Origin: Perna viridis
Lineage: Eukaryota
Direction of reading: 5' to 3'
Length of the DNA: 64,000 nucleotides
NCBI GenBank assembly: GCA_037379345.1
Contig: CM074515.1
Location: forward strand, 3,782,001-3,846,000
The position numbers are program-made. Shown here in pieces: positions 15,001 through 45,000 of the stretch. Position 1 is the first letter of the stretch. Each line of letters opens with the position of its first letter.

Positions 15001-18000
15001 TCAAGCAGGCAGTGTTGAAATAAGTCCCGGTAACGAGGAAAATATATCGATAATTCGCAGCTCATGCACCACACTAGTCTACAATTTTTAATATCATGGC
15101 ATTTGAAGATAATATAAAAGTCGATAAAAACGAAATAATATCAATGCTTTTCAATATAATGTCATGTTTTATCGACCATGTTGACCAAAATTATATCGGT
15201 AACAGTAATTAACCAACATTTTTTTTTTCAATTTAAATTTCGCGGTTTTCGCACTTGACATACGGGTCATTTCGTTCTCAAGCCTCGTTTCTATGGCCGA
15301 AACTCATCACCGCCATTTTGGATTAATTTTTGCCAAAATATGTCCCTTGAAGAACCGAATACAACCCAAATTCAGCTCGAAAACATTGGTGGTAAGCTTT
15401 GGTGCACAGAAATAAATACACTTGAACAAAAATCAATTAGATCTTTACAATATCATGTTATTAATCAAGATTAATTGTCGTTATGCTGGTCTGATAGTTC
15501 CACATTCATTGTCCACAACATTGGGCGCAGTGATATGAGAAATTTTGCTGACAGTATTCCTACTCCGGCCGCGTAGAGATATTGATATAAATAAAACGCT
15601 AGTGATTATTGTTTGAGTATAAAATTGCTTGAATATTTAGTGTATTTTCTTACGAAATATGTTTATTTTAGACGAACCTCGACCCTTTCGTAAATCAAGG
15701 AGTTTTTGTCCATTTCTTGTCGCACTTCGAATTGTTTCGTCCGCCTACTTTTACTTTCTGTTTACCCACGACGTCCCTTGCTCAAGTTGACGCGTATGTT
15801 TAACCCCACCATGTGTTTTTTTTAGGAAAGCCTTTCCAGCTGATGATTGCTATACTGTTCTCCCCACAGTCAGTCTTGATATATCTTTTTGTCCTGCCAA
15901 TATTCTGAGTTAATTTATAAATATGAAACGTTTGATATAAACTATGTATAATGGTTTTTTTTTTCTCTATTTAAAAACAAAATGTTACTCAATCTGATTA
16001 GGCTGGGGACATATAAACAACGGCTCTATGCAAACACACATAATTCAAAACCTCAATGAAATCAGACACTATGAAATTAGAAAATATTAATGTTACAAAT
16101 AGCAATTTAACAGGGCTTAAGTTGAATGTTCTACACCATTCAAAGTTTCAAATCAATGGCCCACACATTCCTGGACAGGCTGCCTCTTCAGGGCAATTGT
16201 CCACACGCCCAATTTGTATCAATAACATACGGAGTTGTGACAGAAACACTTGATGCGCCAAGGAAATATTGTTTAACTTATCCGCAAATCTGCGACTATT
16301 AATGACTTCGCGAACTGTGTTTACATTTAATTAACTGAACAGTTTTCTAATGAAATAAATTTTATACATTCCCCTATTGTTTGTTATGTGTTTAGTTGAA
16401 AATGGACAAATTTTATGTTGGTTAGACACAGAACAAGTCACATAAGTTATGATGACTGGTGCCAAACTAGGTGCATTATGATTATAAATGTGCCTGATTG
16501 AAACATTTGCCGAAACAATCTTTCAGGATGTGCAAACATTGTTTGAAATAGTCTTTCAAGCTTTTAAATATGTATTTTGTCATAATTCTGAATGATATTT
16601 TATCAGTATACATGTATGTTGCATCAGATACAATTTTGTAACTTTTATTGTATTTTTTTCATTTGGTATGTATTTGTATACAATGAATTTCTCAAAATTT
16701 CCATATTACTTTTGTAAATGAAGTGTTGCCGTCATGATTCCATGTTTTATGGACCAGAATGTGTTGATAAGCCACCACTGCCAAAGTAAAAATCGTTGAT
16801 ATGTTAATGATCTAGTCTAAAATTAAGAATTGAGATTTTGAAGGTTATAGGTAAAAAAAATTAGGGTTCCATACTTCTGATACAATTAATTTGAACCCAA
16901 ACATGGTCCTTCTGCAAGTGCCATGAAGTCCAGTGCTTTGAGAGTGTAAAATTTATTATCAAAATGTTTAACTTCAGCATTGTTTTCTACAATAATCACA
17001 AAACTTACACAATATGATCTTAAAATAAAATTAAATTGAATACATCTTGTGACAAAAGGTGTGACTAATTGCATTTAAAATTAAAAATAGAACCAAATAC
17101 TGCTTGAAAAGTACTGAAAAAATGTTTTATGTCCATTGTAGATTATGCACAGTTTATCAGCCAGGCCACTATTGCTCATGTTGCCCATGTATCAGAATCT
17201 GGAGAAATTGTAGCATTTGTAGAACAACATGTGGATCCTAATCAACAAGAGAACATTGACCCAAACCAAATTACACTTGCCAACTTTGATCCACAACAAC
17301 TACAGGTTGAACATGTGGTTTTTGAACAGTTACCAGAAGGGACCCAGATTCAGACGCTGGAGTTCTTACCTCCCCTTCAGCAGCAACAACAGCAACAACA
17401 ACCAGTACAGGTACCTGAACCAAAGAAGGCTGATATCAAACCACCTGTAGGCAAGGTACATGTATATACCTCACATTATTGGTAGCACTAGTGATACTTT
17501 CTAATGATACTGATTTTCATTAGTTACAGGAACTTATTATAAAAATTGGTAATTCATTTTTAGATAAGATTCACATGTATAGATGTAAACTTTAACATAC
17601 TCCATCCAACAGTATAAACTCCAATAAATAAAACTTTACTTGGTAATCTTGCACTTATATACACAAGACCATTACCTGAAACAAATGTTAATTGTAAGTT
17701 GTTTGAGGAATATTTTGCTTATTTGTTGAAGAGGTTGATTAAATACCTAATTTGGGCTATTGGCTGAGACATATTGTGCTTGCAAGTGAACCTCAGACAA
17801 CGGGTAATATAACATAAGCAAATTTTATTATTTTTTAGGGACCTTTTCCATGTGAGTCTTGTGACAAAATATTCCCAAAATGGAACCAACTGCAGAGACA
17901 CATGAAGAGTCACGAGGAGGACAAGCCATACAGGTGTTCTCAGTGTTCTTTGTCATTCAATATGGAGGAGAATCTCAAATTACATCAAGCGACCCATGTA

Positions 18001-42000: not shown

Positions 42001-45000
42001 AACGGCAGATAAACATATGGACTCATGTTAAAGGCCTCTTTGATGCCATATTTTTTAATGGTGGATAAATGACAGCGACTTAAGTGGTAACGATAAGTTC
42101 CTTTAGATGCAAAATGTCTACTACATGCTACGCAGTGATATTCCACAGCAGAATCACTACCACTGTCGCTATGACTACCTTCCGACAACATCTCCTCCAT
42201 CATTTCCTCATCCTCCATTTCTCTTTTGAGGGAGAGATTCAGAGGAATAGAAATTTCTGGAGATCCATTCAGGACGGTCTGACTTGGCATTTTCATTCCA
42301 GGAATGTCTGTTTTAGTAATGAGTTTTTGTAGTTTATCTAGGGGATGTTCACTGTCTAACGATTGTCCATAAACAAAGCTGCTAAGTGAATCTAGAGCAG
42401 ATGATTTCTGTGATGTCTGTTCCTCATCGTCAATATTTAAATATTTACTACTCAAAGATTCATTACTTGATTTCACCTCTTTAGAGTCAGCAGAGTCTAA
42501 CATTGCTTTAGGACTTGGTTGTCTTTTATTAACATTTTCACACAGTTTCTCCAGTTTCTCAAGCTCATCTTTTGTAGAATCACTTGCTTCACTTTCCTCA
42601 GACTCAGATGAAGTCTTTTTAGCCATGTTTTCCATCAATAAAGATGGCTGAAAGTACTTTCGATACTTTTCAAATTTTAGTAATGGACTTAAAGATTCTT
42701 GCTTTTCAAACACATTCATTTTGAATTTATTTTTACCATAACCAAACTTTGAACTAAAGCTTTTCTGAATGAAGGACTCCATTGCTTGAAGAGCTGAGTT
42801 TCCTTCCTCCTCATTTCCAACATCTGCCTCTGGATTCAAAATGTCTAATTTCTTAGCACTTAATTTAAGTGGACTACTCATATCAGATCCTTCCTTTTGT
42901 CTTTTTTCAATATCATTTTCATCCTGTGGTTCAGTTTTAATAAATTTCTGTTTAATTAAGTCAGTTTCCAGTCCATCTATTTGTTCTTTAAAATTAGGAT
43001 TGCCTTCAGATTCAACCTTCTCATGATCATTTTCAATTTTCACTTTTTCTGCACTTTCTTTGTTTTGTTTGTTTTCTTTGGAATTGTCATTGCATTTTTC
43101 ACTTTTCTTTTCTTCTTTCAAAGTTTTAGATTGTAGATTGTTGACTTGGGATTTCAATTTTTCAATTCTGGATTCAAAGGCCTCTACCATTGTTTTATGA
43201 AGACAACCACGAACATGTTCCACAAAACAACTTGTTTCAATTCTATCACCACAGTTTTCACATGTGATTAGACTGTCATCTGCTAGATCACTATCAGGGC
43301 TACTGATATTAGACCTATCCTGAGCTGGTGATGACCTTGATAGTGGTACCTTTTTGGTTTCACCATTCACTTCAGTACCTTGCCGATCATTAGCTTTCAG
43401 AGGCAGATCAGTGTGATTGTGAGATCTGAGTATGCTACGTTTATGATGACCAGACAGAATCATGTGATTAGCTAATCCTTCCATATCTACAAACATACTG
43501 TTGCAGACTTTACATTTGAAAACACATTCTCTGTCCACATCTCGGTCACAGTAAGCTGAGCATTTATGAGTACGACGTCCATGCTCAGAACTTACAATTT
43601 TTGTGTAGTGCTGAGTTTGCATCATATGAACAGTCAGCATTGGCAAAGATTTAAAAGATTCACCACATTGCATGCAGCGTAATATTCTTTTAGTCTGTTC
43701 AGACTCGGTATTTAACCACATGTCCTGCCCACGTACAAGTTTAGGATACTCCATTAAATTTGCCTTTTTGACCCCAGCAGGCAAATGTCCAGTCTCCTGA
43801 ATATGTAAACTAAGGTCAAATAAAGATGTAAATGTTTTAGTACAGACACATTTATGCCTTGTGTGTTTGTCTTCATCACTTTCAACAGAATTCTGATGTT
43901 TAAAATTGGAATTCAAGTCTTTATGATTTGTAGCTGTAGATTCTGAACCTTCACTTGAGGATTTCTCTAAAGTTTCAACAAATGGTGGAATTGGGCTTTT
44001 TTTCTTTGGCAGAGGAGGTATGGAATTCAGCAGAATATTATCAGCACTACATGCTTTGCTGTATAAATCATATGACAAGGCATGAAGTCCTTTCATCGGC
44101 TTCTGTAACAAGCGAGTATGATAATCACCCCCAAATTTCTGCTGGAGACTTTGTAGACTAGATTTGATGGAGTCGGGGAACAGTCCATTACTGTATTTTT
44201 GACGAGACTTTAATTGGATGTCTGATGAAGCTGATGAATGTTTAACAGCACTTGATGAATATGAGGCTGTTGACGAAGAAGGTGATTTCAAGCCTCCAGT
44301 TTTCTTAGACAGATCAAGAGGCTGTTCATTTTCATAAGATTTTGCACTAAATGGATATCCTAGAGCACTCATAGATGATAAAGCTGCCGGTGGAAAAAAT
44401 AGTTTGTTAGAATATTGTTTTGATTTCAATATGTGTTGTCGAGGATGTGTTGGAGCATTTTTAACACTGGCTAGAAATGAAGGTGTTGAAACCAGTGGAA
44501 TCTGCCATTTAGAGGCAGCTACATGTTCTTCTTTAAACACCTTTTTAGGTGGTGAGTGGTGAGGGCTACTCATAAAGAGAGGTAATGGATCTTGTCTCAT
44601 TAGTCTTTTCAATGGTGGAGTTTCTGAACGACTAGATTCTTTCTGATCTTTTGAAGTTAGATTGTCTAACTTTTCCCCTTTGTCAACAATCTCATCATTA
44701 CAAAGGGATGGACTTGACTGCTTTTCCTTCTCAGAGAGATGTTTTTTCAGATCATTTTCTCCATCTTCTACTTTCTCTGAATATTCCTGTGGAGTCATAG
44801 ATTTTGTATTGTCATCAACCTGATTATCTTCAATGATCAACTTATCATTAGTACTCCCATCAGAGTTAGAATCTGTTTCCATTACTTGTTGATTTTCATT
44901 GTTATCATCATTTTCATCCATCTCTTCATCACTTCTATTGGTGTCTTTGGTCTTCTCCTCACCAACTGTAAATATATAAATACTGATTAGTAAGGTAATA

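What the first reader, a model, noticed from the sequence alone, without database searches (positions are those of the whole stretch)
15340..44965. ZNF236 and teashirt are immediate tail-to-tail neighbours, echoing human TSHZ1-ZNF236 linkage
Seen: the two stop codons are 5.9 kb apart with no gene between them. Established (from memory): human TSHZ1 (18q22.3) and ZNF236 (18q23) lie in one gene-poor block with ZNF516, part of the TSHZ/ZNF516-536-217/SALL paralogon. Inference: this is a bilaterian-age microsynteny, possibly a genomic regulatory block in which the broadly expressed ZNF236 is a bystander carrying or bounding tsh enhancers. I do not know whether this pair has been described in lophotrochozoans.
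Basis: partly seen in the sequence, partly recalled or inferred. Interest (0 to 1): 0.65.

Follow-up and report, generated by a model that had tools for sequence, protein, structure and literature searches.

The report
Teashirt and ZNF236: conserved gene neighbours
In this bivalve genome piece the developmental gene teashirt lies tail-to-tail, 5.9 kb from the many-fingered gene ZNF236; the same two genes share a contig in other molluscs and in worms and lie close on human chromosome 18, so this is a sound but not unusual example of ancient gene neighbours.

Summary
A 24-exon ZNF236 orthologue runs on the + strand from its ATG at 15340 to its stop at 35974-35976. The large teashirt/tiptop exon runs on the - strand from 44965 to its stop at 41904-41906. 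Between them lie 5,927 bp with no gene I could detect. Both orthologies are strong.

The linkage is not peculiar to this genome. Five of those contigs are 1.3 Mb or smaller, one of them from the annelid Capitella. Locus tags differ by 2-3 in three molluscs. In human, TSHZ1, SMIM21, ZNF516 and ZNF236 lie within one 2.5-Mb deletion.

"Bilaterian-age" stays unproven, because I saw no ecdysozoan, ambulacrarian or amphioxus positions. The regulatory-block and bystander idea is untested, because no orthologous DNA was available. Nine full-text searches relevant to this point found no paper describing the pair; supplements were closed. I rate it a new member of a known kind, of moderate interest.

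The parts
15340..35976 (+). ZNF236 orthologue, complete coding region in 24 exon-level matches, from ATG 15340 to stop 35974-35976
   Evidence: tblastn of Mytilus edulis ZNF236-like (P0122, 1821 aa) covers residues 1-1821 collinearly. Exon cores: 15340-15390, 17138-17455, 17839-18138, 19625-19777, 20126-20338, 20491-20652, 21430-21555, 21817-21984, 22473-22754, 23072-23344, 24767-24973, 25518-25667, 26073-26324, 27102-27338, 27567-27806, 29072-29173, 29531-29722, 30315-30569, 30889-31056, 32143-32325, 32702-33490, 33717-34004, 34696-34881, 35659-35973. There are 26 complete C2H2 fingers inside single exon cores. Of the 23 matches, AG directly precedes 4 starts and GT directly follows 6 ends.
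35977..41903 (.). Intergenic spacer between the two stop codons (5,927 bp, 28.9% GC); it presumably holds both 3' UTRs
   Evidence: One search gives the length and GC and shows no copy elsewhere in the window. One search finds 3 small tandem repeats. One search finds no Rfam family and no tRNA. Searches find no Pfam family in 4 of 4 intergenic ORFs tested.
37757..38164 (+). 135-codon ORF in the spacer, probably a decayed mobile-element fragment and not a gene
   Evidence: No Pfam family. The Atlas feature search scored 0.92, sharing 149-152 of 256 features, with clusters of which 32-33% carry PF26215 HTH_animal. By the tool's own guide this is a weak lead.
41904..44965 (-). Large coding exon of the teashirt/tiptop orthologue (about 1020 codons), from the AG acceptor at 44967-44966 to the stop at 41904-41906
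   Evidence: Searches give the ORF and acceptor. The only PDB match is Teashirt homolog 3, E=5.7e-11. Named database hits are teashirt homolog or protein tiptop. Five fingers lie at ORF residues 389, 447, 501, 585 and 961, and PLDLS at 232.
44966..64000 (-). Part of tsh intron 1 (longer than 19 kb); the first exon and promoter are not in the window
   Evidence: No MPRRKQ-like peptide occurs in six frames. Pfam found no family in 8 of 8 ORFs tested here. A dispersed repeat at 63173-64000 also occurs in a ZNF236 intron at 28268-28780.

Best explanation
Two real, unrelated zinc-finger genes sit in convergent orientation: the single-copy ZNF236 orthologue and the teashirt/tiptop orthologue. Their proximity is inherited, not a local accident. 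It goes back at least to the common ancestor of molluscs and annelids. It is most simply the same linkage that survives, loosened by two inserted genes, as TSHZ1-SMIM21-ZNF516-ZNF236 on human 18q22.3-q23. The most likely reason for its persistence is that the regulatory landscape of the developmental gene tsh extends 3' across its neighbour, so that breaks between the two genes are selected against (a genomic regulatory block with ZNF236 as bystander). Adjacency, orthology and recurrence of the linkage in spiralians are shown. Common origin with the human block is inferred from those facts. The regulatory mechanism is inferred by analogy only.
For: Adjacency: the stops are 5,927 bp apart with nothing detectable between them. 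ZNF236 orthology: two separate exons searched against 5.8 billion proteins gave ZNF236 or ZNF236-like for every descriptively named hit among the best 120 of 300 and the best 120 of 630. The remaining hits were 'hypothetical', 'uncharacterized', 'unnamed' or carried no name, apart from one extra UniRef label (ZNF865) on a Lingula hit. The Mytilus protein maps end to end in 24 pieces. Elephant-shark, chicken, acorn-worm and horseshoe-crab ZNF236 map to 15-16 exon matches each. These are collinear from the first finger block to the last exon at 44-92% identity, apart from a few matches to non-collinear positions of those proteins. Tsh orthology: plus the five-finger definition read in PMC8173736. 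These are 6 bivalves, 5 gastropods, 2 annelids and 2 nemerteans. Five contigs are small: Ruditapes 466,969; Capitella 472,888; Physella 601,672; Ylistrum 1,171,827; Nucella 1,285,897 bp. Locus tags: Tegillarca KUTeg_020028/020030, Nucella ACOMHN_053997/053999, Bulinus Btru_017012/017009. Human: one 2.53-Mb deletion holds ZADH2, TSHZ1, SMIM21, ZNF516, ZNF236, MBP and GALR1 (passages). Vertebrate TSHZ1 is a recognised block target whose enhancers skip bystanders (passages).
Against: Two of the 17 species do not share a contig. For Saccostrea echinata the lengths are 29.7 and 69.7 Mb, which may be a real break or a mixed-assembly effect. Paralvinella has small scaffolds of 231 and 556 kb. For the 10 chromosome-scale contigs the shared length shows only the same chromosome, not closeness. 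Locus-tag order is an inference about gene order, and each of the three cases leaves room for 1-2 annotated features in between. I have no position data for any ecdysozoan, echinoderm, hemichordate or amphioxus. In human the pair is not adjacent. The only TSHZ1 bystander I found in print is ZNF407, on the other side of TSHZ1. The main texts of two microsynteny/regulatory-block surveys never mention tshz, teashirt or ZNF236. No conserved non-coding element, chromatin contact or expression pattern was examined.
Confidence: 0.55

Rival explanations
1. Historical linkage without function. The pair is ancestral but has been kept only because spiralian genomes rearrange slowly and the interval is short. 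In vertebrates the two genes merely stayed on the same stretch of an ancestral linkage group. No regulatory element of tsh depends on ZNF236.
For: All evidence here is positional and none is regulatory. The human pair has two genes and up to 2.5 Mb between them. Saccostrea may have lost the linkage. The spacer is short (5.9 kb), so it offers a small target for breakpoints.
Against: The linkage survives across bivalves, gastropods and an annelid on scaffolds of 1.3 Mb or less, which is longer than most neighbour pairs are said to last (general statement in the abstract of PMC3514665, search listing). Vertebrate TSHZ1 is a documented long-range regulated gene.
Confidence: 0.33
2. Chance adjacency. 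The two genes became neighbours in this lineage by rearrangement, and the resemblance to human 18q is coincidence on a shared ancestral chromosome.
For: Only the two exceptions (Saccostrea, Paralvinella) and the fact that 10 of the 15 shared contigs are whole chromosomes.
Against: Five species from three classes, two of mollusc and one of annelid, hold both genes on one scaffold of 0.47-1.29 Mb. Three molluscs have locus tags 2-3 apart. My estimate, not computed by a tool, is that two random loci on a 30-100-Mb chromosome would fall that close in only a few percent of cases per species.
Confidence: 0.05
3. Mistaken orthology. The + strand gene is some other poly-zinc-finger gene and the - strand ORF is a generic C2H2 protein.
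For: C2H2 fingers match one another promiscuously. A three-finger exon hits 145 distinct PDB sequences (ZNF568, PRDM9, CTCF and others), in several registers. The teashirt ORF scores below Pfam cut-offs for the C2H2 families.
Against: Matches to ZNF236 from four phyla run from the N-terminal finger block to the last exon and include non-finger linkers, collinear apart from a few matches to other positions of the reference proteins. Every descriptively named hit among the best 120 of two exon searches is ZNF236. Tsh shows the family's five-finger layout, PLDLS, and TSHZ3 as its only PDB hit.
Confidence: 0.02

Closest known systems
Human 18q22.3-q23 block TSHZ1 - SMIM21 - ZNF516 - ZNF236 - MBP - GALR1 (PMC5057431, passages read)
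   Same: The same two orthologous genes are close neighbours in a gene-poor stretch.
   Different: In human, two genes lie between them within a block of up to 2.5 Mb. Here nothing lies in a 5.9-kb spacer. I could not check relative orientation in human. The vertebrate TSHZ carries a homeodomain, and Pfam found none here.
TSHZ1 genomic regulatory block with bystander ZNF407 (PMC2831330, passages and table read)
   Same: A teashirt gene is the long-range regulated target, and a large unrelated multi-finger gene next to it carries its conserved non-coding elements (36 in ZNF407).
   Different: The bystander is a different gene, and from memory it lies on the other side of TSHZ1. For ZNF236 no such elements have been shown, either in what I read or here.
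Ancient metazoan microsyntenic pairs (PMC3514665; abstract in search listing, main text searched by term)
   Same: An unrelated neighbour pair involving a developmental regulator is retained across phyla.
   Different: This pair is not named in that main text. Its supplementary lists could not be opened. The cross-phylum test applied there was met here only for molluscs, annelids and nemerteans by proxy, plus human.
Arthropod tiptop/teashirt (PMC8173736, passages read)
   Same: It has the same five-finger architecture and, outside Drosophila, is a single-copy gene.
   Different: The first finger has C-x-C spacing in 16 of 16 spiralian proteins, against C-x2-C in the 2 arthropod proteins compared. 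I do not know whether arthropods keep ZNF236 nearby.

Membership tests
ZNF236 orthologue group | Very long protein (about 1,700-1,950 aa in the hits) with some 25-30 C2H2 fingers in several clusters | tested here: met
   The exons cover a 1,821-aa reference end to end. There are 26 complete fingers within single exon cores, plus fingers split by introns. zf-C2H2 scores above its cut-off in 6 of 8 exon ORFs scanned.
ZNF236 orthologue group | Collinear similarity along the whole length to ZNF236 of distant phyla, not just finger-to-finger matches | tested here: met
   Callorhinchus, Gallus, Ptychodera and Tachypleus ZNF236 give 15-16 exon matches each from 17839 to 35829. They are in order apart from a few matches to other positions of those proteins. 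By contrast, solved poly-finger proteins match one exon in several registers.
ZNF236 orthologue group | Best database hits are ZNF236 | tested here: met
   Every descriptively named hit among the best 120 is ZNF236 or ZNF236-like, for exon 17839-18153 and exon 32702-33490. One Lingula hit also carries a UniRef label, ZNF865.
ZNF236 orthologue group | Reciprocal best hit within this organism's whole gene set, and placement in a gene tree | not testable with these tools
   Only 64 kb of the genome is available. No tree was built.
Teashirt/Tiptop family | A unique set of five fingers, four in the N-terminal/central part with the fourth of C2HC type, and a fifth near the C-terminus (as defined in PMC8173736) | tested here: met
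   Fingers lie at ORF residues 389, 447, 501, 585 (C2HC) and 961. The same layout occurs in 16 spiralian relatives.
Teashirt/Tiptop family | PLDLS-type motif upstream of the fingers (its role as a CtBP-binding motif is recalled; a Tsh-CtBP paper was seen only as a listing) | tested here: met
   PLDLS lies at ORF residue 232. All 18 proteins compared carry P.DLS.
Teashirt/Tiptop family | Short first exon encoding an MPRRKQ..PKR N-terminus, as in named spiralian relatives | tested here: inconclusive
   It is not present in any frame of the window. It presumably lies more than 19 kb upstream, outside the window.
Teashirt/Tiptop family | Homeodomain (vertebrate TSHZ only; the Drosophila orthologue lacks it, PMC2211742) | tested here: not met
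   No homeobox family in the Pfam scan. This is expected for an invertebrate member and does not argue against membership.
Genomic regulatory block (target plus bystander) | A developmental regulator kept in synteny with an unrelated neighbour over long evolutionary time | tested here: inconclusive
Five of these contigs are 1.3 Mb or smaller, and locus tags are 2-3 apart in three species. A human block exists. I had no distances for chromosome-scale contigs and no data for other phyla.
Genomic regulatory block (target plus bystander) | An array of conserved non-coding elements spanning the bystander and acting on the target | not testable with these tools
   No orthologous eukaryotic DNA could be fetched. 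The one open contig collection holds only bacterial and archaeal genomes, and I did not scan it.
Genomic regulatory block (target plus bystander) | Bystander expression unlike that of the target, and physical contacts to the target promoter | not testable with these tools
   There are no expression or chromatin data, and the tsh promoter is outside the window.

The most novel reading that the evidence does not exclude
tsh and ZNF236 form a bilaterian-age regulatory block. ZNF236 introns carry teashirt enhancers. After the two vertebrate genome duplications only the TSHZ1 copy kept the bystander, while the TSHZ2 and TSHZ3 copies lost its exons and were left in gene deserts. This is the fate that PMC7530604 describes in general terms (abstract in search listing only).
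Probability: 0.25. Interest if true: 0.55.

Novelty: new member of a known kind. Interest (0 to 1): 0.36.

Why it matters
Conserved neighbour pairs around developmental regulators are among the few handles on cis-regulation in animals that have no functional genomics. This locus is compact: the ZNF236 gene spans 20.6 kb, the spacer 5.9 kb and the teashirt exon 3 kb. If ZNF236 introns do carry teashirt enhancers, this would be a much smaller version of the megabase-scale TSHZ1 landscape deleted in human 18q- syndrome. That would make tsh regulation testable in spiralians and would help explain the gene deserts around TSHZ2 and TSHZ3. If not, it is one more entry in a catalogue of several hundred ancient pairs.

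Tried and rejected
I did not repeat it. Gene order therefore rests on the locus tags and contig lengths already printed.

2. I looked for tsh exon 1 with peptide patterns in six frames and found nothing. I conclude it lies outside the window.

3. I looked for a gene in the spacer and flanks. Pfam on 28 ORFs gave only two sub-threshold DUF hits, at 8463-8708 and 9108-9428. Rfam gave 0 and tRNA 0. The spacer has no copies elsewhere in the window.

4. The 218-codon antisense ORF 22490-23146 has no Pfam family. I take it as chance.

5. Literature. ZNF236+microsynteny found 0 papers. ZNF236+synteny found 3, none on this pair to judge by their listings and by passages of one. ZNF236+bystander found 2 irrelevant papers. 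ZNF236+TSHZ1 found 13, all human clinical or omics papers by their titles. I also searched 'zinc finger protein 236' with teashirt or tiptop, teashirt/mollusc/ZNF236, teashirt+'genomic regulatory block', teashirt/synteny/paralogon and TSHZ/microsynteny/bystander. None described the pair.

6. I considered and dropped a structure prediction, a complex prediction and the nameless representative search, because none bears on a synteny claim.

All searches of the ZNF236 model were exon by exon or ran reference proteins against the window.
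Full report
**The window.** It is AT-rich: 26.8-36.0% GC in 2-kb steps. It holds no N. Stop-to-stop ORF lists under the standard code show 20 ORFs of 100 codons or more. Only two exceed 300 codons: 32687..33625 on the + strand and 41904..45014 on the - strand. By its best named protein matches (Mytilus edulis, 77-88% identity in single exons) the DNA comes from a bivalve related to mussels. Nothing suggests human DNA.

**The + strand gene: model.** I did not build or search a joined coding sequence. 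Every search used single exons, or ran a reference protein against the window.
- tblastn of Mytilus edulis "zinc finger protein 236-like" (P0122, 1,821 aa) covers its residues 1-1821 collinearly. There are 23 matches from 15340 to 35973. The one gap, residues 409-465, was found at 21817-21984 at 54% identity.
- The last exon ends in TGA at 35974-35976.
- Of the 23 matches, AG directly precedes 4 starts and GT directly follows 6 ends, with 2 more after one extra base. The other match ends do not coincide exactly with exon ends.
- Twenty-six complete C2H2 fingers lie within single exon cores, and further fingers are split by introns.
- Pfam places zf-C2H2 above its cut-off in 6 of 8 exon ORFs scanned. 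The two without it are non-finger linkers.

**The + strand gene: orthology.**
- The exon ORF 17839-18153, searched among longer proteins, gave 300 hits from 315 candidates.
- Exon 32702-33490 gave 630 hits from 3,322 candidates.
- In both lists every descriptively named hit among the best 120 is ZNF236 or ZNF236-like. They come from bivalves, gastropods, annelids, nemerteans, a brachiopod, a priapulid, echinoderms, hemichordates, amphioxus, lampreys, sharks and tetrapods. The rest are labelled hypothetical, uncharacterized, unnamed or carry no name. One Lingula hit also carries a UniRef label, ZNF865.
- ZNF236 of Callorhinchus, Gallus, Ptychodera and Tachypleus each maps to 15-16 exon matches from the first finger block (17839) to the last exon (35829), at 44-92% identity where collinear. 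A few matches go to other positions of these proteins: two for Callorhinchus and one each for Gallus, Tachypleus and Tegillarca.
- As a contrast, a three-finger exon (23084-23344) matches 145 distinct solved poly-finger proteins, such as ZNF568, PRDM9 and CTCF, in several registers. Its collinear match to Callorhinchus ZNF236 is 85% identical.
- A reciprocal search in this animal's own gene set and a tree were not possible or not done.

**The - strand gene.**
- The ORF 41904..45014 (P0001) is preceded by an intron tail.
- Its only match among solved structures at E up to 0.01 is human Teashirt homolog 3, at E=5.7e-11.
- Of 359 database hits (7,999 candidates scored, best 120 listed), the descriptive names are "teashirt homolog 1/2-like", "protein tiptop" and one "Malpighian tubule stellate cell differentiation". 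The nearest named relatives are bivalves at 44-49% identity.
- The ORF carries the five-finger set that defines Tio/Tsh proteins (passages of PMC8173736). The fingers lie at residues 389, 447, 501, 585 (C2HC) and 961. There is also a PLDLS motif at 232.
- The same layout occurs in the 16 spiralian relatives I compared. Their first finger has C-x-C spacing, against C-x2-C in the 2 arthropods.
- Pfam finds no homeodomain. This is expected, since the Drosophila orthologue lacks it (PMC2211742).
- Named spiralian relatives begin with an MPRRKQ..PKR peptide. No such peptide exists in any frame of the window. So tsh exon 1 and its promoter lie beyond 64000, and intron 1 exceeds 19 kb.

**Between and around the two genes.**
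- The stops are separated by 5,927 bp at 28.9% GC.
- The spacer has three small tandem repeats, no copy elsewhere in the window, no Rfam family (0 matches in the whole window) and no tRNA.
- Its one ORF of 100 codons or more (37757-38164) has no Pfam family. It has only a weak feature-based resemblance (0.92) to clusters of which a third carry PF26215. I read it as a decayed mobile-element fragment.
- Pfam on 28 further ORFs, from the spacer, the 15 kb upstream of ZNF236, one ZNF236 intron and the tsh intron, gave nothing above the cut-offs.
- As far as sequence alone can show, the window holds these two genes only, and they are immediate neighbours.

**Linkage elsewhere.** The protein searches, however, print a source name and the length of the contig for each hit.
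- Seventeen species have a named Tsh hit and a named ZNF236 hit, both with a contig length. Crassostrea virginica was left out because its ZNF236 row has no length.
- In 15 of the 17 the two lengths are identical to the base, so they are the same contig.
- Bivalves: Tegillarca, Ylistrum, Ruditapes, Dreissena, Mactra, Mercenaria.
- Gastropods: Patella, Gigantopelta, Physella, Nucella, Bulinus.
- Annelids: Owenia, Capitella.
- Nemerteans: Tubulanus, Lineus.
- Five of these contigs are small: Ruditapes 466,969 bp, Capitella 472,888, Physella 601,672, Ylistrum 1,171,827 and Nucella 1,285,897. The other ten are 11-107 Mb and show only the same chromosome.
- Three submitters' locus tags are 2-3 apart: KUTeg_020028/020030, ACOMHN_053997/053999 and Btru_017012/017009. 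If tags follow map order, which I infer, that leaves 1-2 annotated features in between.
- The two exceptions are Saccostrea echinata (29,722,620 against 69,717,260) and Paralvinella palmiformis (scaffolds of 231,464 and 555,824). The first may be a real break or a cluster drawn from different assemblies. The second is uninformative.
- My estimate, not a tool result, is that two random loci on a 30-100-Mb chromosome would share a 0.5-1.3-Mb scaffold in only a few percent of cases. Five such cases in three classes, two of mollusc and one of annelid, are therefore not chance.

**Human and the literature.**
- Passages of PMC5057431 list ZADH2, TSHZ1, SMIM21, ZNF516, ZNF236, MBP and GALR1 within a 2.53-Mb deletion at 18q22.3-q23.
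- PMC2180198 places ZNF516, ZNF236, MBP and GALR1 together, and SALL3 beyond a desert rich in conserved elements.
- PMC2211742 gives TSHZ1 at 18q22.3, TSHZ2 at 20q13.2, TSHZ3 at 19q12, ADNP at 20q13.13 and ADNP2 at 18q23. This fits the 18q/20q/19q paralogy but does not test the ZNF516/536/217 part.
- TSHZ1 is a recognised regulatory-block target. PMC2831330 lists it with bystander ZNF407, which holds 36 conserved non-coding elements. PMC7049698 names it among genes whose predicted enhancers skip bystanders.
- None of the ten full-text searches produced a paper that describes tsh-ZNF236 linkage in any invertebrate, or ZNF236 as a bystander.
- The main texts of PMC3514665 and PMC7530604 contain none of the terms tshz, teashirt or znf236.
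- Their supplementary pair lists, and those of the three-spiralian-genomes paper (recalled, not opened), could hold this pair. Supplements were closed.

**Interpretation.**
- Shown: a convergent ZNF236-teashirt pair 5.9 kb apart, and both orthologies.
- Supported through proxies: recurrence of the linkage across molluscs, annelids and nemerteans.
- Inferred: that the human TSHZ1...ZNF236 block descends from the same ancestral neighbourhood. This is probable, because a single-copy gene and one of three TSHZ paralogues lie two genes apart. It is not demonstrated without ecdysozoan, ambulacrarian and amphioxus maps.
- Inferred by analogy only: that the pair is held together because tsh regulatory elements lie in or beyond ZNF236.
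- The main rival is neutral persistence of a short interval in slowly rearranging genomes. I give the regulatory reading together with ancient ancestry 0.55, the neutral reading 0.33, chance 0.05 and mistaken orthology 0.02.

**Verdict.** It is a new member of a known kind, a conserved microsyntenic pair around a developmental regulator, and of moderate interest.

Noticed in passing
window 1-225 and 1226-1450; 889-1215 and 1768-2089: A perfect 225-bp inverted repeat, and a 327-bp direct repeat at 95% identity, lie at the start of the window. They could be mobile-element ends or an assembly duplication.
   Followed up: no
window 28268-28780 and 63173-64000: The same dispersed repeat family (77-87% identity, opposite orientation) sits in a ZNF236 intron and in the tsh intron, with two adjacent copies at 63423-64000. 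Pfam found no family in the ORFs it carries.
   Followed up: partly
window 13346-14142: Degenerate tandem copies (73-76% identity) of a unit of about 150-370 bp lie upstream of ZNF236.
   Followed up: no
window 22490-23146, - strand: A 218-codon ORF runs antisense across ZNF236 exons and an intron. It has no Pfam family and I take it as chance.
   Followed up: partly
P0001 residues 389-410 (window about 43785-43850, - strand): The first Tsh finger has C-x-C rather than C-x2-C spacing. The same holds in 16 of 16 spiralian Tsh proteins compared, against C-x2-C in the 2 arthropods.
   Followed up: partly
hits P0017 and P0123 (Saccostrea echinata): The tsh and ZNF236 clusters of this oyster report different contig lengths (29.7 and 69.7 Mb). 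The linkage may be broken in this oyster, or the clusters may mix assemblies.
   Followed up: no
window 38001-42000: The spacer next to the tsh 3' end is the AT-richest part of the window (26.8-29.0% GC).
   Followed up: no
hits P0002-P0005: The closest Tsh relatives (65-100% identity) come only from unnamed sources. Their predicted N-termini start inside the large exon or read through its acceptor, so they say nothing about exon 1.
   Followed up: partly
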